Source of the DNA: Candidatus Bilamarchaeaceae archaeon | Lineage (GTDB): Archaea; Micrarchaeota; Micrarchaeia; Anstonellales; Bilamarchaeaceae | DNA: 64,000 bases | Assembly: GCA_038851325.1 (NCBI GenBank) | Contig: JAWCKZ010000001.1 | Coordinates: 35,769-99,768 of the forward strand | Reading direction: 5' to 3' | Shown here: positions 30,503 to 63,668 of the stretch, one piece after another | Layout: every line of letters begins with the position of its first letter | How positions within the stretch are numbered: position 1 is the first letter of the stretch | Position numbers and translations under genes: made by a program | Notes under the pieces: generated by a model | Databases searched by the model: none | Told to the model about the DNA's origin: nothing | Seen by the model: only the letters and a program-made list of their open reading frames with translations

Positions 30503-30576
30503 CGGGCCCGACGCGATTTGAACGCGTACCCCAAGGTCCGAAGCCTTGTCGGCTATCCAGGTTACCACACGGGCCC
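30503..30576 (-). tRNA. tRNA-Arg (anticodon TCG)
   Basis: Hand-folded cloverleaf on the minus strand: GGGCCCG acceptor, D-stem with two G·U pairs, anticodon stem CAAGG/CCTTG with loop CTTCGGA, T-arm ACGCG-TTCAAAT-CGCGT, acceptor CGGGCCC and discriminator G. No intron. Confidence 0.7.
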
Positions 30577-30880
30577 TTTTTATGTATTCCTCCTGTTTTC
30601 TTAAGTTTCTTTCTGTTTTCTCTGTTTTCTAAATGTTTTCTATGTGCCGTGGGCTTATGTTTTTCTCAGGCCACGGCGGTCGTGGAGGTTTTCTTACTAT
30701 TTAGGTTTTCTTACTGGTTTTTTAAGTTTCTTTCTGTTTTCTCTGCTTTCTAAATGTTTTCAAGGTGCCGCAGGCTTGCTGTTTCTCTCAGGCTGCGGCG
30801 GTCGTGGAGGTTTTCTTACTGGTTCTTTAAGTTTTTTTCTGTTTTCGCTATCTTTCTCATTGTGTTATATTTAAAAACGA
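30577..30880 (-). repeat. about 2.5 tandem copies of a ~105-nt RNA-gene-associated repeat module, co-oriented with and immediately 5' of tRNA-Arg(TCG)
   Basis: The reverse complement matches the modules at 44599..44717 and 45876..46126 (…cctccacgaccgCCGTGGcctgagaaaaacataagcCCACGGcacatagaaaacatttagaaaacagagaaaacagaaagaaacttaagaaaa…). The second copy has CCGCAG…CTGCGG arms, i.e. two compensatory changes. Confidence 0.8.
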
Positions 30881-30919: not shown

Positions 30920-31681
30920 ATGAAAGTGAAGGAATATATAGAAACAGAGATAGAAAAAAAGGGTGCGCTTTTCTTTGCGCTCATAGACCCTCTTGATTAC
31001 AATAGCCTTGAAAATGCTGTAAAAACAGCAAGGGATGCTGATGAGGCAGACGCAGACTTAATACTCGTTGGAGGAAGTACCGGCGTACAGGGCGTAATAT
31101 TGGATGAGATAACAAAAAGGATAAAGGAAAATGTTTCCAAACCTGTTGTTCTTTTCCCCGGCAACATAGGAACACTCACAAAGTACGCGGATGGTGTTTA
31201 TTTTATGTCGATGTTGAACTCTCGCAATCCTTATTGGATAAGCGAAGCACAAATGCTGGCAGCACCTGTTGTTAAGAGATACGGAATAGAACCGCTTTCA
31301 GTAGGATATGTAGTTGTAGAGCCCGGAGGGACTGTAGGGTGGGTTGGCGATTCTCGTCTTATACCTAGAAATAGACCAAAACTTGCTGCAGCTTACGCAC
31401 TTGCTGCAGAATACATGGGATTTGACTTTTTCATAACAGATGCTGGAAGTAATCCTGCTGAAGGACCAATACCGGTTGAGATGGTAAAAGCTGTTGCTTC
31501 TGCAATAAACATAAATTACATCGTTGCCGGTGGAATAAGAAAACCAGAAGAGGCAAGACGCATCGCAGAAGCAGGTGCAGATGCGATTCAAGTAGGAACT
31601 TATCTTGAGAAGGAGACCGAAAAGGGTAAGATAGAGGCTATGATAAAGGCGCTAAGAGAAGGAGCAAAATCAAGAGTGTAA
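30920..31681 (+). CDS. geranylgeranylglyceryl phosphate synthase (PcrB/GGGPS family)
   Basis: 253 aa TIM-barrel protein. …ADLILVGGSTGV…, …FFITDAGSNPAEGPIP…, …YIVAGGIRKPEEA…. Confidence 0.8.
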   Translation: MKVKEYIETEIEKKGALFFALIDPLDYNSLENAVKTARDADEADADLILVGGSTGVQGVILDEITKRIKENVSKPVVLFPGNIGTLTKYADGVYFMSMLNSRNPYWISEAQMLAAPVVKRYGIEPLSVGYVVVEPGGTVGWVGDSRLIPRNRPKLAAAYALAAEYMGFDFFITDAGSNPAEGPIPVEMVKAVASAININYIVAGGIRKPEEARRIAEAGADAIQVGTYLEKETEKGKIEAMIKALREGAKSRV

Positions 31682-44358: not shown

Positions 44359-44510
44359 CCCTAAAACGCAGGGAGGGGGCTGATGTTTTCTTCTATTCCC
44401 CTCCCTTCATTTTTAGGGCTAATTCTGATTCCCTCCCTAAAACGCAGGGAGGGGGCTGATGTTTTCTTCTATTCCCCTCCCTTCATTTTTAGGGCTAATT
44501 CTGATTCCCT
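44359..44510 (+). repeat. two exact tandem copies of a 76-nt unit, each a long near-perfect hairpin (CCCTAAAA…GGGAGGGG…CCCCTCCC…TTTTTAGGG)
   Basis: Copy 1 at 44359-44434 and copy 2 at 44435-44510, read directly. ORF-track entries 44142..44459 and 44383..44628 are translations of this repeat. Confidence 0.85.
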
Positions 44511-44598
44511 CCCCTTTCTGTTTATTTATGTTTGTTTATTTATCTTTTTGTTTGTTTTATGTTTTTGTGTTTTTGTTTTGCGCCGATTTTATTTCAGA

Positions 44599-44717
44599 AG
44601 AAAACCTCCCACGACCGCCGTGGCCTGAGAGAAACATAAGTCCACGGCACATAGAAAACATTAGGAAAACAGAGAAAACAGAAAGAAACTTAAGAAAACA
44701 GGAGGAATACATAAAAA
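44599..44717 (+). repeat. single copy of the ~105-nt RNA-gene-associated module, ending exactly at the 5' end of the candidate ncRNA
   Basis: …gaaaacctcccacgaccgccgtggcctgagagaaacataagtccacggcacatagaaaacattaggaaaacagagaaaacagaaagaaacttaagaaaacaggaggaatacataaaaag. The last ~30 nt are identical to the 30 nt preceding tRNA-Arg(TCG). Confidence 0.8.
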
Positions 44718-44923
44718 GGTGAGGAGAGTAGTCTGCCTTCTGTTGTAGCGGCATTTTACTACGCGGCGTAAAGCCTTGCACAATCATCGAAAGGAAAGCG
44801 TCCGTTTCATCCAAGTCAAAGCTTGGTATCGTTTCTGTTACGCTTTCAGCTCCTTAAGAGCATCACATTCTCTTGTGGGCAGAACTTCCTCCGAATCATT
44901 CGGTGAGCCGCTCTCTCCTCACC
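44718..44923 (+). ncRNA. candidate structured ncRNA (~206 nt) closed by an 11-bp terminal helix; identity unresolved (SRP RNA-like or RNase P-like motifs)
   Basis: 5' GGTGAGGAGAG pairs perfectly with 3' CTCTCTCCTCACC. Internal hairpins include CCAAG-TCAAAG-CTTGG and CCGAA-TCA-TTCGG, plus a GNRA-tetraloop-like …UCGAAAGGAAAGCGUCCG…. No ORF of at least 60 aa on this strand. It sits where the repeat module otherwise precedes tRNAs. Confidence 0.5.
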
Positions 44924-45214
44924 ATATTTATCTGGAATTTGAAGGATTTAAATCTTTGCAGGGCATCAAGCTTTTCGCTCCTTTACTTCCACTTGTTCTT
45001 GACTTGCTTTTCAGATAAAATTCGGCGAGTGAAATGTTTATTATTCTGCTAGGCCAAAGCAAACAACTGAGAGAATACTAAAGATACCTGTGAATAGCGC
45101 AGCGCCCAAAATGAAAAGAGATTACTCTTATATAGCTAACTGCTTTTTACAATACAATCTATGATCAATCTATGATTTTGTTGTACATTTACTTAAGACC
45201 TTCTTTTACTAACG

Positions 45215-45222: not shown

Positions 45223-45350
45223 TGCCGCGGGCCGGAGTTTTTGGCAGCTGCGCGGGCAGCCTGAACCAGCGACCCCTCGGTCTTCAGCCGAGTGCTCTCC
45301 CAACAGCACGCCCTAGTGGCGAACCACCCAGAGCTCTGAGCTACCGCGGC
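45223..45350 (-). tRNA. tRNA-Phe (anticodon GAA) with two non-canonical introns: about 32 nt in the D-loop and about 23 nt in the T-loop
   Basis: Minus-strand reading: GCCGCGG-TA-GCTC-AG[AGCTCTGGGTGGTTCGCCACTAGGGCGTGCTG]TTGGGA-GAGC-A-CTCGG-CTGAAGA-CCGAG-GGGTC-GCTGG-TTCA[GGCTGCCCGCGCAGCTGCCAAAA]ACT-CCGGC-CCGCGGC-A. Removing the bracketed segments gives a canonical 73-nt tRNA-Phe with the classic AGTTGGGAGAGC D-arm. Confidence 0.6.
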
Positions 45351-45395: not shown

Positions 45396-45485
45396 TTAAA
45401 ATTCTTCTTCCTCTTCTTCCTCCCATTCTTCTTCGTCTTCTTCCTCTTCCCACTCCTCTTCTTCATCTGCTTCGAAATGCCTCAT
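45396..45485 (-). CDS. possible 29-aa ultra-acidic mini-ORF (MRHFEADEEEEWEEEEDEEEWEEEEEEF)
   Basis: Read from the sequence. May simply be an artefact of a GAA/GAG-rich tract. Confidence 0.2.
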   Translation of the reverse strand: MRHFEADEEEEWEEEEDEEEWEEEEEEEF

Positions 45486-45539
45486 AGGATATCACCACTT
45501 AAAAACTGGAGAGTAATACATAGAAACTATTAAAAATGT

Positions 45540-45656: not shown

Positions 45657-45875
45657 GATCGCACCCATCCTTTTTTTCGCAGAAATTTTAAATCTGTTGC
45701 TTTCCACCCCTAGAGTTAAGTTCCATAATAGATATAAGTTGACAACTCATAAGCTACTCTTTTCGTCATTGCCGATTGGCTCCGTCTGGGACGGTAATTT
45801 CATCGTTGCCATGTTTATAGGAGAGATCCTTATATAAATTATTTTCTACCATCGAAAGACCGCGTAAGTGCTTAA

Positions 45876-46126
45876 AAACTTACCTGAGAAAAACTAAACA
45901 GCTGCCGTGGCCTGAGAAAAACATAAGCCCACGGCACATAGAAAACATTTAGAAAACAGAGAAAACAGAAAGAAACTTAAGAAAATAGTAAGAAAACCTA
46001 AATAGTAAGAAAACCTCCACGACCGCCGTGGCCTGAGAAAAACATAAGCCCACGGCACCTTGAGAACATTTAGAAAACAGAGAAAACAGAAAGAAACTTA
46101 AGAAAATAGTAAGAATAAATAAAAAC
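45876..46126 (+). repeat. two tandem copies of the ~105-nt RNA-gene-associated module immediately 5' of tRNA-Arg(TCT)
   Basis: …ccgtggcctgagaaaaacataagcccacggcacatagaaaacatttagaaaacagagaaaacagaaagaaacttaagaaaatagtaagaaaacctaaatagtaagaaaacctccacgaccgccgtggcctgag… read directly. A TATA-like cttatataaa sits about 45 nt upstream, around 45829-45838. Confidence 0.8.
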
Positions 46127-46232
46127 GGGCCCGTGGCGCAGCCTGGATAGCGCAGCAGCCTTCTATGCGTTTCGAACTTCGTTCAAACCCCAAGAGAGCT
46201 GACGGTCGCGAGTTCAAATCTCGCCGGGCCCG
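46127..46232 (+). tRNA. tRNA-Arg (anticodon TCT) with a 31-nt intron at the canonical 37/38 position
   Basis: GGGCCCG-TG-GCGC-AGCCTGGATA-GCGC-A-GCAGC-CTTCTA[TGCGTTTCGAACTTCGTTCAAACCCCAAGAG]A-GCTGA-CGGTC-GCGAG-TTCAAAT-CTCGC-CGGGCCC-G. The T-arm and acceptor are perfect. The anticodon stem has one G/A mismatch at its base. Confidence 0.6.
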
Positions 46233-61414: not shown

Positions 61415-61729
61415 TTTTGAACCCGGGTCACAGGCTTTCTTCCCGAACCGCAGGGAACCTACGGTTCCCCTCAGTTTGAGGTTCCTCCTGATCCCCTCCC
61501 TTAGAGAATCCCTATGAGCAACCTAAGTTCTCCTCAGGGCTTTTGATGAAACTTTTGCCCGAACCGCAGGGAACCTACGGTTCCCCTCAGTTTGAGGCTC
61601 TCCCTGACTCCCATCTTTAAGGAGATCGCCTACAACCTGAGAACTCTCTCAGGGCTTTTTGGGAACCTCTTGCTCTTAGAAAACCCAAGAGCATAAGTTT
61701 TCCTCAGGGTTTTGATGAAACTTTTGCCC
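61415..61729 (+). repeat. about 2.3 tandem copies of a 116-nt repeat with a 40-nt invariant core containing a GGGAACC-TAC-GGTTCCC hairpin and recurring CTCAGGGYTTTT elements
   Basis: The core cccgaaccgcagggaacctacggttcccctcagtttgagg is identical at 61442-61481 and 61558-61597. Flanks are divergent. No cas genes and no CRISPR-like spacing. Confidence 0.75.
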
Positions 61730-61860: not shown

Positions 61861-62190
61861 TTAAATAGTTTTCCCACTACTCGAATTAAAATTTCTGGAA
61901 AGCCAATTAAAGCATCTAGCCGCTCCCTCGAATGCACTCTGTTCAACAAGCCTCACGGCCGTCTCGAGATACCTCCTTACTCTTTCATGTAGTTCATCTT
62001 TTATCTCAGGAAGTATCAGAAACGGGTTCTGAGTACCAAGAGCGAGCGCGAATTCTCTTATAAATCGTCTTCCAGCGCTCTTCTTTATCTCTTTTATCGT
62101 CGGATTTTTTTCCTTGTCTGCAGCAAGTAGCGTTGCATCGTGAGTTTTGCGGTTTTCTGGTTTCAGGCTCCGTATGTTGCCGTGATCCAC
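61861..62190 (-). CDS. hypothetical protein (109 aa); possibly the frameshifted C-terminal part of the upstream archaeal ATPase
   Basis: Overlaps the 3' end of 62163..63317 by 28 nt in another frame. Archaeal-ATPase proteins often carry a ~100-aa C-terminal domain. Confidence 0.35.
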   Translation of the reverse strand: MDHGNIRSLKPENRKTHDATLLAADKEKNPTIKEIKKSAGRRFIREFALALGTQNPFLILPEIKDELHERVRRYLETAVRLVEQSAFEGAARCFNWLSRNFNSSSGKTI

Positions 62191-63317
62191 CTTTTGAGCA
62201 TCGGGTCGACTAGGACGTATTTTCCCACTGCCTTTTTCTTGACATATGATTTTTCAATAAGGCGCTCTATCATTTTTGCAATATTTGGAAGAGGTTTGCC
62301 AATTTTTCTGGCGATACCGGACATGTTCTCATTCCCAAGTCCTATTTCTATAAGAACACTTTTCTCCCCTGCAGAAAGCTTTTCTAAACTAGAACGAAAA
62401 ACAGCATCGCCCTCCGCCAGCATCACCTTTAGGGAGTCTTCTATTACAGCTTCGGTTATTTCTTTCTTTTCGGAATCATATATCTTATCACCTAGCCATT
62501 GAAGGTAATACGGATAACCTTCAGTAACATGATGGATCTTTTTTAGGTGTTCCTCTGTAAAAGAGAGACCTGCTTTTCTAAATTTCTCCCGCATCATCTT
62601 TATTGAAGTTGCTTCATCAAACGGACCGAGCTGATAAGGTTTCAGCAGATGAAAAAAAGGCGCAGTTTTTGGAAGTGCCATCTGCTCCAAAAGCGAGACT
62701 TCTGACCCACAAACAATTATCGATGTATTTTTCCATCTTTGGATGATAGCTCTTATTGCCCAGACGGTATTCTTCTCGAGTTCCTCAACCATCTGAAATT
62801 CATCAAATATCAGAATAGCCCGGCTCTTTGTTTCCCTCCCAAGACTTTCTGCTACACCAAACGATTTTTTGATCAAATCCTGAAGACTGGCTTTCTTTTC
62901 CTTGAAACTCACTTTGACTTGCAAATAATCCTTTATGGAAACCCCAACCTCGGTACTTCTCAGCAACGCAGCCAATGCTTCCCCGGAACCTTTTAGTGCC
63001 TCGATCAACCGGCTTTTTATCTCCCTCTTTGGCCTAAACGCATCCACGCATTTCAAGAATAGTTGATCGTGAAAAGACTCTATGTCGAAGGGATGCAGAC
63101 TGGAAACATCAAAATACACAGGGGTTGCAGAACTCTTCTTTTTCACCCTATTGACAAACTCTTCCAGAAGGGAGGTCTTTCCGATCCGCCTGGGACCGTA
63201 TATGACATAACCAAGTTTGCCTCTTTTAACCAGGTCCCTATAAAGCATTTCGAGCACTTTTTCTCTGCCGTAGAAATCTTTTCCAACTACTGGGCCACCG
63301 ACCTTAAACAAAGTCAT
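62163..63317 (-). CDS. archaeal ATPase-family (AAA-like) protein
   Basis: Walker A …YGPRRIGKTSLL…, Walker B …LIFDEFQ…. Architecture typical of the Arch_ATPase family common in archaeal accessory regions. Confidence 0.7.
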   Translation of the reverse strand: MTLFKVGGPVVGKDFYGREKVLEMLYRDLVKRGKLGYVIYGPRRIGKTSLLEEFVNRVKKKSSATPVYFDVSSLHPFDIESFHDQLFLKCVDAFRPKREIKSRLIEALKGSGEALAALLRSTEVGVSIKDYLQVKVSFKEKKASLQDLIKKSFGVAESLGRETKSRAILIFDEFQMVEELEKNTVWAIRAIIQRWKNTSIIVCGSEVSLLEQMALPKTAPFFHLLKPYQLGPFDEATSIKMMREKFRKAGLSFTEEHLKKIHHVTEGYPYYLQWLGDKIYDSEKKEITEAVIEDSLKVMLAEGDAVFRSSLEKLSAGEKSVLIEIGLGNENMSGIARKIGKPLPNIAKMIERLIEKSYVKKKAVGKYVLVDPMLKRWITATYGA

Positions 63318-63330
63318 GTTATCCCCTTAA

Positions 63331-63362
63331 TTGACATTTTTGTCTATTGACATTTTTGTCAA
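63331..63362 (+). promoter_or_regulatory. tandem dyad-symmetric 14-nt sites (TTGACAtttttGTC ×2; the second is a perfect TTGACA-N4-TGTCAA palindrome) in the divergent region between the ATPase and the recombinase
   Basis: Read from the sequence at 63331-63344 and 63347-63362, 14 nt upstream of the ATPase start codon. Confidence 0.35.
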
Positions 63363-63668
63363 TAATACATATAAACCTTTGCTTATTGCTACACCAGATG
63401 CAGTTTCGGCCCAGCAATTATCAAAATCCAAATGAAAAAATAATGAAAATCAGCATGTGCCAGAATCTACTTTTTTGATGGAAAAATGGGCCCGCGGAGC
63501 CGCCTGATGGCAGTTTCCTGTTCAGAGTTGCCAGTTTCCAGACGTGAAAACGGAGGGTTTTCCGTTCCGGGCAACCAGTTCCCGGAATGCAGTGAAGAAC
63601 GACCTGCCTGGAAAGCAAAGCAAATCTCAAAAGAGCTTACGGCTAAATGGCCTGAAATAAAGCGGGAA

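What the first reader, a model, noticed from the sequence alone, without database searches (positions are those of the whole stretch)
30577..30880. A ~105-nt structured repeat module sits co-oriented immediately 5' of three different stable-RNA genes, with compensatory base changes in its hairpin
Near-identical modules occur at 30577-30880 (minus orientation, 2.5 copies, abutting tRNA-Arg TCG), 44599-44717 (one copy, abutting the candidate ncRNA) and 45876-46126 (two copies, abutting tRNA-Arg TCT). The module is …CCTCCACGACCG-CCGTGG-cctgagaaaaacataagc-CCACGG-cacatagaaaacatttagaaaacagagaaaacagaaagaaacttaagaaaa…. In all three loci it has the same orientation as the downstream RNA gene, and its last ~30 nt (aaacaggaggaatacataaaaag) run right up to the first nucleotide of the RNA. 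One copy (plus 30741-30800) has arms CCGCAG…CTGCGG instead of CCGTGG…CCACGG. That is two compensatory pair changes (T-A to C-G, G-C to A-T) that preserve the 6-bp stem, which argues for selection on RNA or hairpin structure rather than a recent duplication. The upstream CCACG/CGTGG alternative pairing is not preserved in that copy. Plausible roles are a shared pre-RNA leader processed away by RNase P, a promoter/terminator cassette for stable-RNA genes, a small mobile element targeting tRNA 5' flanks, or independent small RNAs. I do not recognise it as a described element.
Basis: seen in the sequence. Interest (0 to 1): 0.8.

Follow-up and report, generated by a model that had tools for sequence, protein, structure and literature searches.

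The report
Repeated promoter-like module beside tRNA-Arg genes
A ~121-base repeat specific to one lineage of a tiny DPANN archaeon (Micrarchaeota) sits in front of two arginine tRNA genes and, turned the other way, behind the RNase P RNA gene; it most likely carries duplicated promoter signals plus a small hairpin, and is a modest curiosity rather than a new kind of system.

Summary
The repeat is real. There are five full copies and one partial copy of a ~121-nt A-rich module at three loci, 83-97% identical to each other. The headline claim is only partly right. Two arrays lie directly 5' of tRNA-Arg(TCG) and tRNA-Arg(TCT), in the same orientation as those genes. The "candidate ncRNA" is the RNase P RNA, and it is on the minus strand. 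The third copy therefore abuts its 3' end in reverse orientation, where its T-rich strand extends the oligo-T terminator.

Each module has a 7+2-bp hairpin followed by five GAAAAC-like motifs spaced 9-11 bp apart. These resemble this genome's own BRE/TATA promoters. One TATA-like octamer is centred about 25 nt before the first tRNA nucleotide, the same geometry as the RNase P promoters.

Relatives lack the module at the orthologous tRNA-Arg(TCT) site in four lineages and at the RNase P 3' flank in five loci. All five relatives keep RNase P directly upstream of the GGGPS gene. That link is broken here, with inverted module copies on both sides, which suggests an inversion. One diverged copy (~80% identity) lies upstream of glnA in a related species.

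Covariation support comes from a single copy, which counts as one event. My best reading is a lineage-specific, promoter-bearing intergenic repeat. Interest is low to moderate.

The parts
30503..30576 (-). tRNA-Arg (anticodon TCG); its first nucleotide directly follows module C1
   Evidence: ARAGORN; Rfam tRNA, 50.4 bits
30577..30697 (-). Module copy C1, the tRNA-proximal copy. Its tail is ...GAAACTTAAGAAAACAGGAGGAATACATAAAAA. The hairpin is at 30646-30677. The TATA-like CTTAAGAAA lies about 21-29 nt before the tRNA 5' end, and ATTTAGAA lies at -58..-51.
30698..30819 (-). Module copy C2. Its hairpin variant GCCGCAG...CTGCGGC (30767-30799) has two adjacent pairs changed on both sides.
30820..30880 (-). 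Partial module copy C3. It has the 3' A-rich half only and no hairpin. It abuts the TATA box (TTATATTTAAAAA) of the divergent GGGPS gene at 30920-31681 (+).
44595..44717 (+). Single module copy A, 97% identical to C1, with its hairpin at 44617-44648. It is antiparallel to RNase P RNA and abuts that gene's 3' end. Read on the minus strand, the RNase P 3' end is followed by TTTTTATG... and further T4 runs.
44718..44923 (-). RNase P RNA (206 nt). Its promoter TATA ATTTAAAT lies 23-30 nt upstream of its 5' end, at about 44946-44953.
   Evidence: Rfam RF00373, 95.6 bits
45876..46002 (+). Module copy B2, the distal copy. It lacks the CCTCCACGACC segment. Its hairpin is at 45904-45935.
46003..46126 (+). 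Module copy B1, the tRNA-proximal copy. Its hairpin is at 46025-46056 and its tail is ...CTTAAGAAAATAGTAAGAATAAATAAAAAC.
46127..46232 (+). tRNA-Arg (anticodon TCT) with a 33-nt anticodon-loop intron
   Evidence: Rfam tRNA, 49.5 bits

Best explanation
The module is a ~121-bp intergenic repeat specific to this Bilamarchaeaceae (Micrarchaeota, DPANN) lineage. I think it carries archaeal promoter signals. It has been tandemly amplified and copied between loci by recombination.

Each unit has a short hairpin followed by five GAAAAC-like motifs about one helical turn apart. These motifs look like this genome's BRE (TFB-recognition) element. Two of them are followed by TATA-like octamers: GAAAAC-ATTTAGAA and GAAAC-TTAAGAAA.

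In the tRNA-proximal copies the second octamer is centred about 25 nt upstream of tRNA nucleotide 1. Transcription would then start at or next to the mature 5' end. The first octamer would give a leader of about 28 nt. Upstream tandem copies would add further start sites, and their transcripts would carry the hairpin.

The sense strand is about 50% A and has no T runs, so sense transcription should run through to the tRNA. The opposite strand is full of T4-T7 runs, so antisense transcription should stop. This is why the reversed copy behind RNase P RNA works as, or extends, that gene's oligo-T terminator.

That copy probably reached its present place when inverted module copies recombined and inverted the 13.7-kb segment between them. 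This separated RNase P RNA from GGGPS.

Shown: the anatomy, the orientations, the absence from relatives and the synteny break. Inferred: promoter and terminator activity, the role of the hairpin and the inversion mechanism.
For: (1) By elimination, the promoter of tRNA-Arg(TCG) must lie in or just beyond the array. The ~340 nt between the tRNA and the divergent GGGPS gene hold only C1-C3 and the GGGPS TATA/leader.

(2) The genome's own promoters read purine-rich/GAAAAC followed by TTTTAAAT. Examples are FtsZ (AGAAAACATTTTTAAAGAAAG) and gene 11554 (AGAAAACTTTTAAATC). The module has GAAAACATTTAGAAAAC.

(3) The geometry fits. RNase P RNA genes here and in five relatives have a TATA octamer (ATTTAAAT, TTAATAAA, TTAATAAG, TTAAAATA...) at about -31..-23 from the mature 5' end. 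The module's CTTAAGAAA lies at about -29..-21 before both tRNA-Arg genes.

(4) In four related lineages the tRNA-Arg(TCT) promoter is GGAAG(C/G)(A/G)ATTAAAAAT. This resembles the module's GAAAGAAACTTAAGAAAA.

(5) GAAAAC-like motifs are spaced 11, 9, 11, 9 nt. TRF reports period 11 with 5.6 copies and period 20.

(6) Strand asymmetry: the sense strand is 50% A and 10-14% T, and the antisense strand has 6-14 runs of T4 or longer per array. T5 directly follows the RNase P 3' end, as it does in relatives L044 and L056.

(7) The only cross-species copy (L044/L045) is ~80% identical, although housekeeping proteins of the two species are only 74-77% identical. Its best-conserved block, CGGCACATAGAAAACATTAG (20/20 with copy A), covers the BRE/TATA-like core. 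It lies upstream of and co-oriented with glnA.

(8) RNase P(+) immediately upstream of GGGPS(+) is conserved in five relatives. It is broken here, with 94%-complementary inverted module arms at 30575-30692 and 44602-44719.
Against: There are no transcription start data. The TATA-like octamers each contain a G (TTAAGAAA, TTTAGAAA) and are weaker than the TTTAAA cores of neighbouring promoters. A strong orphan TATA (CTTATATAAAT, about 45828-45838) lies upstream of the B array, and the symmetric GGGPS TATA lies upstream of the C array. Either could instead drive long leaders that contain the modules. The promoter idea does not explain the hairpin. Similarity between the module and the ancestral tRNA-Arg promoter is low-complexity and weak. 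I could not obtain the genome-wide distribution. The inversion scenario does not by itself explain why copy A has the tRNA-proximal type of tail.
Confidence: 0.45

Rival explanations
1. The module is a non-autonomous mobile element of MITE, REP/BIME or PATE type. Its hairpin would be the recognition structure for a transposase encoded elsewhere. It would insert next to A/T tracts at the ends of stable-RNA genes and then amplify in tandem.
For: There are dispersed near-identical copies at three loci (A and C1 are 97% identical). The module is absent from orthologous sites in relatives. A copy ~80% identical lies at a non-orthologous site in another species. All three junctions fall at an A5/T5 tract next to a G-rich helix end: AAAAA|GGGCCC, AAAAC|GGGCCC and AAAAA|GGTGAGG. 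The internal hairpin is conserved in form in L044 although its inner-stem sequence differs. Short-read contigs break at the module (L042, L050).
Against: There are no terminal inverted repeats and no clear target-site duplication; the unit ends are direct, tandem-type. The Pfam scans found no transposase, integrase or RAYT-like gene (30 window proteins scanned), and none appears among the genes called for neighbouring loci. There were no matches in viral contigs, phage records, plasmid records, GTDB genomes or JGI metagenomes. Only one copy was found in ~190 kb of relatives' DNA.
Confidence: 0.2
2. The module acts at the RNA level. It would be either a structured 5' leader of the pre-tRNAs, removed by RNase P, or an independent small RNA, with the hairpin as the selected feature.
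For: The hairpin folds at -14.6 kcal/mol with z = -3.7 (sense) and -22 kcal/mol with z = -4.0 (antisense). Copy C2 keeps the stem through two double changes. The L044 copy forms an equivalent hairpin at the same place with a different inner stem. The sense strand has no T runs, so a transcript started upstream would reach the tRNA. Candidate upstream TATA boxes exist for both arrays.
Against: Only one covariation event is seen. All other stem positions are invariant and so uninformative. In single-copy settings (locus A, L044, and L051 at locus B) the hairpin lies upstream of the module's own promoter-like motifs. At locus A, sense transcription would run antisense into RNase P RNA. Outside the hairpin the RNA is predicted unstructured. 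Rfam gives no match even at E<=1. Orthologous tRNA-Arg(TCT) genes in relatives do without it.
Confidence: 0.15
3. The module is neutral repeat DNA. It would be a by-product of segmental duplication, unequal crossing-over and gene conversion around two paralogous tRNA-Arg genes that share the first 9 nt (GGGCCCGTG). It would have no function of its own beyond containing whatever promoter was there originally.
For: Variants are distributed in a mosaic. CACATAG occurs in A, B2 and C1, while CACCTTG occurs in B1 and C2. The GGAGGAATACAT tail occurs in A and C1, and the GTAAGAA tail in B1, B2 and C2. This indicates recombination among copies. Copy number at locus B differs between assemblies of the same species, two in the window and one in L051. 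The region is a rearrangement hot spot among relatives. The genome carries other intergenic tandem repeats.
Against: About 80% nucleotide identity is retained with a species whose proteins are only ~75% identical. A perfectly conserved 20-nt core argues for constraint or transfer. DPANN genomes are compact, and intergenic gaps in this window are mostly under 100 nt.
Confidence: 0.15

Closest known systems
Putative mobile promoters (PMPs): conserved 50-100-nt upstream sequences propagated within prokaryotic genomes (Matus-Garcia et al. 2012, PMC3488235)
   Same: It is a conserved upstream segment of at least 80% identity and more than 50 nt. It is found in front of different genes within one genome and is absent from orthologous sites in relatives. 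It is not an IS element.
   Different: Here the downstream genes are two tRNA-Arg genes, plus glnA in another species, whereas PMPs were defined upstream of non-homologous protein-coding genes. The units are tandemly amplified, carry a hairpin, and one copy is reversed behind a gene. Promoter activity is untested.
Intergenic repeats of halovirus HF2 that carry promoters (PMC8707807)
   Same: These are short repeated intergenic units in an archaeal genome, with AT-rich motifs that act as promoters.
   Different: That element is viral and this one is chromosomal. Its units are 29-58 bp without a hairpin or phased GAAAAC motifs. There is no sequence similarity.
Tandemly repeated promoters upstream of haloarchaeal rRNA operons (Halobacterium; recalled from the 1980s literature, not checked here)
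   Same: A stable-RNA gene is preceded by several direct repeats, each with its own archaeal promoter.
   Different: The lineage and the genes differ (rRNA versus tRNA). Here there are only 1-2.5 copies. There is no evidence that each copy fires.
Bacterial REP/BIME intergenic palindromic repeats
   Same: These are intergenic and hairpin-containing. They occur singly or in small arrays, can act as terminators or transcript stabilisers, and serve as substrates for rearrangement.
   Different: REPs are ~35-nt palindromes present in tens to hundreds of copies, with an associated RAYT transposase. Here the hairpin is a minor part of a 121-nt A-rich unit. No RAYT was seen and the copy number is unknown.
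Fixed-distance promoters giving leaderless tRNA transcripts in Nanoarchaeum equitans (recalled, not checked here)
   Same: It is a DPANN archaeon in which a TATA-like element at a fixed distance of about 26 nt would start transcription at tRNA position +1.
   Different: This organism retains RNase P RNA. The start sites are only predicted.

Membership tests
Any Rfam RNA family | Covariance-model match at the gathering score, or at least E<=1 | tested here: not met
   The whole-window cmscan at gathering threshold and at E<=1 found only RNase P RNA and the two tRNAs, with nothing over the modules.
MITE / IS-derived non-autonomous transposon | Terminal inverted repeats at the unit ends | tested here: not met
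   The only inverted repeat inside a unit is the internal hairpin. The unit ends are direct-repeat type: CAG(A/T)AAGAAAACC at the 5' end and CAG(G/T)A(G/A)GAA at the 3' end.
MITE / IS-derived non-autonomous transposon | Target-site duplication and a cognate transposase in the genome | tested here: inconclusive
   Only TTAT/TTTTTA microhomology is seen at the inferred RNase P/GGGPS breakpoints. No transposase was found in the Pfam scans of window proteins.
REP/BIME-like repeats | High-copy ~35-nt imperfect palindrome with an associated RAYT | tested here: inconclusive
   A 32-nt hairpin is present. Only 5 hairpin copies occur in 64 kb and no RAYT-like gene was seen. Genome-wide copy number is unknown.
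Putative mobile promoter (PMC3488235) | At least 50 nt at >=80% identity upstream of different genes in one genome | tested here: met
   C1 and B1 are 94% identical over 121 nt, upstream of tRNA-Arg(TCG) and tRNA-Arg(TCT). Caveat: both downstream genes are tRNA-Arg, not unrelated protein-coding genes.
Putative mobile promoter (PMC3488235) | The sequence actually contains a promoter | not testable with these tools
   Only sequence resemblance to local BRE/TATA elements and the correct distance to the mature 5' ends are available.
Archaeal BRE/TATA core promoter | A/T-rich octamer centred about 26 nt upstream of the start site, preceded by a purine-rich BRE | tested here: inconclusive
   GAAAC-TTAAGAAA is centred about 25 nt before tRNA +1, and GAAAAC-ATTTAGAA lies at -58..-51. 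The start sites are unknown and the octamers are imperfect.
Archaeal oligo-T terminator | A run of at least 5 T on the non-template strand right after the RNA 3' end | tested here: met
   The RNase P 3' end ...CTCCTCACC is followed by TTTTTATG and five further T4 runs. T5 follows RNase P in relatives L044 and L056. Function was not assayed.
Structured RNA supported by covariation | Several independent compensatory changes across copies | tested here: not met
   Among nine aligned sequences, only C2 shows double changes (two adjacent pairs) among the window-species copies. The third double change counted and all six unpaired cells come from the L044 row, which is misaligned by 2 nt.

The most novel reading that the evidence does not exclude
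The module is a self-propagating, direction-dependent 'promoter one way, terminator the other way' cassette. It targets the A/T-tract boundaries of stable-RNA genes in a DPANN archaeon and moves between species (window lineage and L044 lineage). It co-regulates the two tRNA-Arg isoacceptors, and through its inverted copies it drives chromosomal inversions. Its conserved hairpin would be the recognition or processing element.
Probability: 0.12. Interest if true: 0.55.

Novelty: new member of a known kind. Interest (0 to 1): 0.3.

Why it matters
If the modules do carry promoters, they would be a clear archaeal example of promoter duplication and spread. This would be in a reduced DPANN genome, where every intergenic base is usually accounted for. 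They would also show one repeat acting as promoter or terminator depending on orientation, and acting as a substrate for an inversion that broke an otherwise conserved RNase P-GGGPS linkage. In practical terms, the result corrects the strand of the RNase P RNA gene. It also warns that short-read MAG assemblies of this lineage break or collapse at these repeats. It does not open a new class of system.

Tried and rejected
(1) A GTDB genome scan with GAAAACAGAAARAAACTTAA gave 40 single chance hits in unrelated bacteria. The source genome is not in that collection.

(2) Two JGI metagenome pattern scans gave zero hits and six unrelated chance hits respectively.

(3) The viral-contig scan, phage BLAST and plasmid BLAST found nothing.

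(4) I searched a spurious 76-aa ORF that spans the repeat against 5.8 billion proteins, hoping to find other copies through mis-called genes. It gave no hits.

(5) I considered a replication origin with ORB-like elements and rejected it. The copies are 14 kb apart, the resemblance to ORB is only TCCAC, and the Pfam scans of window proteins found no Orc1/Cdc6.

(6) I considered an att site of an integrated element and rejected it. The module contains no tRNA-derived sequence, there is no integrase, and the flanking genes are housekeeping genes.

(7) I considered a coding role and rejected it. The sense strand has no ATG, only short spurious ORFs occur on the T-rich strand, and these have no homologues.

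(8) Aligning the module 3' part with relatives' tRNA-Arg promoters gave only low-complexity similarity. I treat it as suggestive at most.

(9) TRF did not report the 121-nt period, because there are only 2 copies. It did report the 11- and 20-nt sub-periods.

Full report
Organism and context. The geranylgeranylglyceryl-phosphate synthase gene (GGGPS, 30920-31681) is 99% identical to a protein of an NCBI MAG named Candidatus Bilamarchaeaceae, and its other homologues are Micrarchaeota. The window is therefore chromosomal DNA of a DPANN archaeon. It is densely packed with housekeeping genes: ThrRS, gyrase, FtsZ, HisRS, RadA, thermosome, PolD small subunit, PCNA and Rad50. Pfam scans of 30 window proteins found no transposase or integrase.

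Checking the observation. The repeat is real and far beyond chance. Five full copies and one partial copy of a ~121-nt unit occur at three loci. They are C1-C3 at 30577-30880 (minus orientation), A at 44595-44717 (plus), and B2-B1 at 45876-46126 (plus). Pairwise identity is 83-97%. ARAGORN and Rfam confirm tRNA-Arg(TCG) at 30503-30576 (minus) and an intron-containing tRNA-Arg(TCT) at 46127-46232 (plus). Each is directly preceded by a co-oriented module.

The usual form is GCCGTGG...CCACGGC, and C2 has GCCGCAG...CTGCGGC at 30767-30799.

One central point is wrong. The "candidate ncRNA" is archaeal RNase P RNA, and it lies on the minus strand from 44923 to 44718 (Rfam RF00373, 95.6 bits, full length). 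Its own TATA box is on the high-coordinate side. Module A therefore abuts the 3' end of RNase P RNA and points towards it. It is not a co-oriented 5' element. The tRNA-Phe gene at 45223-45350 (minus) and the RNase P 5' flank have ordinary promoters and no module.

Anatomy. A unit reads (AGTAAGAAAA)CCTCCACGACC, then the hairpin GCCGTGGCC-N12-GCCCACGGC, then CACATAGAAAACATTTAGAAAACAGAGAAAACAGAAAGAAACTTAAGAAAA, then a variable tail. The hairpin has 7+2 bp. It folds at -14.6 kcal/mol on the sense strand (z = -3.7) and at -22 kcal/mol on the antisense strand, where G-U pairs extend it (z = -4.0). The rest of the unit is predicted unstructured.

GAAAAC-like motifs recur at spacings of 11, 9, 11 and 9 nt. 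TRF reports sub-periods of 11 and 20 nt. The sense strand is about 50% A and 10-14% T. The opposite strand carries 6-14 runs of T4 to T7 per array.

Comparison with relatives. I fetched orthologous loci through GGGPS and PolD homologues.

(a) tRNA-Arg(TCT), upstream of the UPF0147-PolD genes, has no module in four related lineages: L047, L052-55, L067-72 and L073-74. They have a short promoter instead, GGAAG(C/G)(A/G)ATTAAAAAT at about -36..-28.

(b) In five relatives (L043, L044, L047, L056, L059) RNase P RNA lies immediately upstream of GGGPS and is co-oriented with it. It is often followed by a T5 run, and there is no module. In the window this ancestral adjacency is broken. GGGPS now follows array C, and RNase P is followed by copy A. 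The two module blocks are inverted with respect to each other (94% complementary arms) and flank a 13.7-kb segment. Un-inverting that segment restores the order RNase P-GGGPS-thermosome. I infer an inversion by recombination between inverted module copies. T5A microhomology (CACC|TTTTTA in the window and in L056) explains why the module seems to start exactly at the RNase P end. Other rearrangements have also happened in this region, so the history is not fully resolved.

(c) A same-species MAG contig (L051) has one copy at locus B where the window has two. This is either real copy-number variation or assembly collapse. Short-read contigs L042 and L050 end in or next to the repeat.

(d) In ~190 kb of relatives' DNA the only homologue is one copy in L044/L045 (E = 5e-11). 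It is ~80% identical. It has a structurally equivalent hairpin with a different inner stem and a 20/20-identical block CGGCACATAGAAAACATTAG. It lies about 50 nt upstream of glnA, a protein-coding gene, and is co-oriented with it.

(e) Scans of GTDB genomes, JGI metagenomes, viral contigs, phage records and plasmid records found nothing related.

What it most likely is. The upstream regions of protein genes in the window show this organism's promoter form. It is a purine-rich element, often (A)GAAAAC, directly followed by TTTTAAAT-like TATA boxes. Examples are FtsZ (AGAAAACATTTTTAAAGAAAG) and gene 11554 (AGAAAACTTTTAAATC). The module's GAAAACATTTAGAAAAC has the same form with one G in the TATA.

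RNase P genes here and in five relatives carry TATA octamers at -31..-23 from the mature 5' end. These include ATTTAAAT, TTAATAAA, TTAATAAG and TTAAAATA. Stable RNAs in this lineage therefore appear to be initiated at or near their mature 5' ends. The module's GAAAC-TTAAGAAA sits at about -29..-21 before both tRNA-Arg genes.

The ~340 nt between tRNA-Arg(TCG) and the divergent GGGPS gene hold only modules and the GGGPS TATA/leader. The tRNA promoter must therefore lie in the module or at that shared TATA.

I conclude, with confidence of about 0.45, that the module is a duplicated promoter-bearing cassette. The proximal copy would drive the tRNA. Upstream copies may add tandem starts whose transcripts contain the hairpin. 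The extreme A/T strand asymmetry would let sense transcription proceed and stop antisense transcription. In the reversed copy behind RNase P RNA, the same asymmetry provides T5 plus further T runs as a terminator.

The role of the hairpin is unresolved. Only one copy shows compensatory change, in two adjacent pairs, which counts as a single event. The shuffle control has little power with so few and so closely related sequences. Quasi-palindrome templated mutation or conversion from an unseen subfamily could produce the same pattern. The diverged but still paired L044 hairpin gives modest extra support for selection on pairing.

Rival explanations. The first is a non-autonomous mobile element. 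In its favour are the dispersed near-identical copies, the absence from orthologous sites, the cross-species copy at a non-orthologous site, and junctions at A/T tracts. Against it, there are no terminal inverted repeats, no clear target duplication, no transposase and no matches anywhere else. The second is an RNA-level leader or small RNA. It is possible because candidate TATA boxes lie upstream of both arrays. It is hard to reconcile with locus A, where sense transcription would be antisense to RNase P, and with single-copy settings. The third is neutral repeat DNA shaped by gene conversion. The mosaic of variants supports it. The ~80% conservation across species whose proteins are only ~75% identical argues against it.

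Comparison with known systems. The closest concept is the "putative mobile promoter" of Matus-Garcia et al. (PMC3488235). The closest archaeal precedents are promoter-carrying intergenic repeats of halovirus HF2 (PMC8707807) and, from memory, tandem repeated promoters of haloarchaeal rRNA operons. The module is not in Rfam and has no relatives in the collections I searched. I rate it a new member of a known kind. Interest is about 0.3. What remains is a tidy but untested lineage-specific promoter/terminator repeat, associated with a probable inversion.

Noticed in passing
window 45223-45350 (-): tRNA-Phe(GAA) was missed by ARAGORN and Rfam. Compared with its L044 orthologue it carries a ~32-nt insert in the D-loop and a ~23-nt insert in the T-loop, with no anticodon-loop intron. 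L044 has only a canonical anticodon-loop intron, and L043 has D-loop plus anticodon-loop inserts. Intron positions therefore turn over quickly in this family.
   Followed up: partly
window 44718-44923 (-): The RNase P RNA is only 206 nt, with large deletions relative to the 288-position Rfam model. Its orthologues in the five relatives also appear variable in length.
   Followed up: partly
window 44359-44513 and 61442-61659: There are two other intergenic tandem repeats: 76 nt x 2.0 at 100% identity, and 116 nt x 1.9. They share CGCAGGGA and CTGAT(T/C)CCCTCCCT and are rich in hairpins. A UGAUGA...CUGA spacing is vaguely like a C/D-box sRNA. Rfam gives no match.
   Followed up: no
L044 1940-2075: This is a strongly structured intergenic stretch with two perfect hairpins (z about -3.8 on both strands). 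It lies immediately upstream of the L044 module copy, between a 789-aa gene and glnA. Rfam gives no match.
   Followed up: partly
window ~45828-45838 (+): An orphan strong TATA-like box, CTTATATAAAT, is preceded by the purine-rich GGAGAGATC. It lies about 40 nt upstream of array B and could drive a long leader through B2-B1 into tRNA-Arg(TCT).
   Followed up: no
window 63329-63364: A 16-nt direct repeat, ATTGACATTTTTGTCT x 2, lies just upstream of an archaeal ATPase_2 (PF01637) gene at 62163-63317 (-). It may be a regulator binding site.
   Followed up: no
window 45400-45490 (-) and L044 8759-8851 (+): A tiny, extremely acidic ORF (MRHFEADEEEEWEEEEDEEEWEEEEEEEF-like) is conserved next to the tRNA-Phe/RNase P cluster in the window and in L044.
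   Followed up: no
L042 start, L050 start, L051 1491-1617: Public short-read assemblies of the same species break at the module or collapse it (one copy at locus B instead of two). MAG contiguity in this lineage is therefore limited by this repeat.
   Followed up: partly
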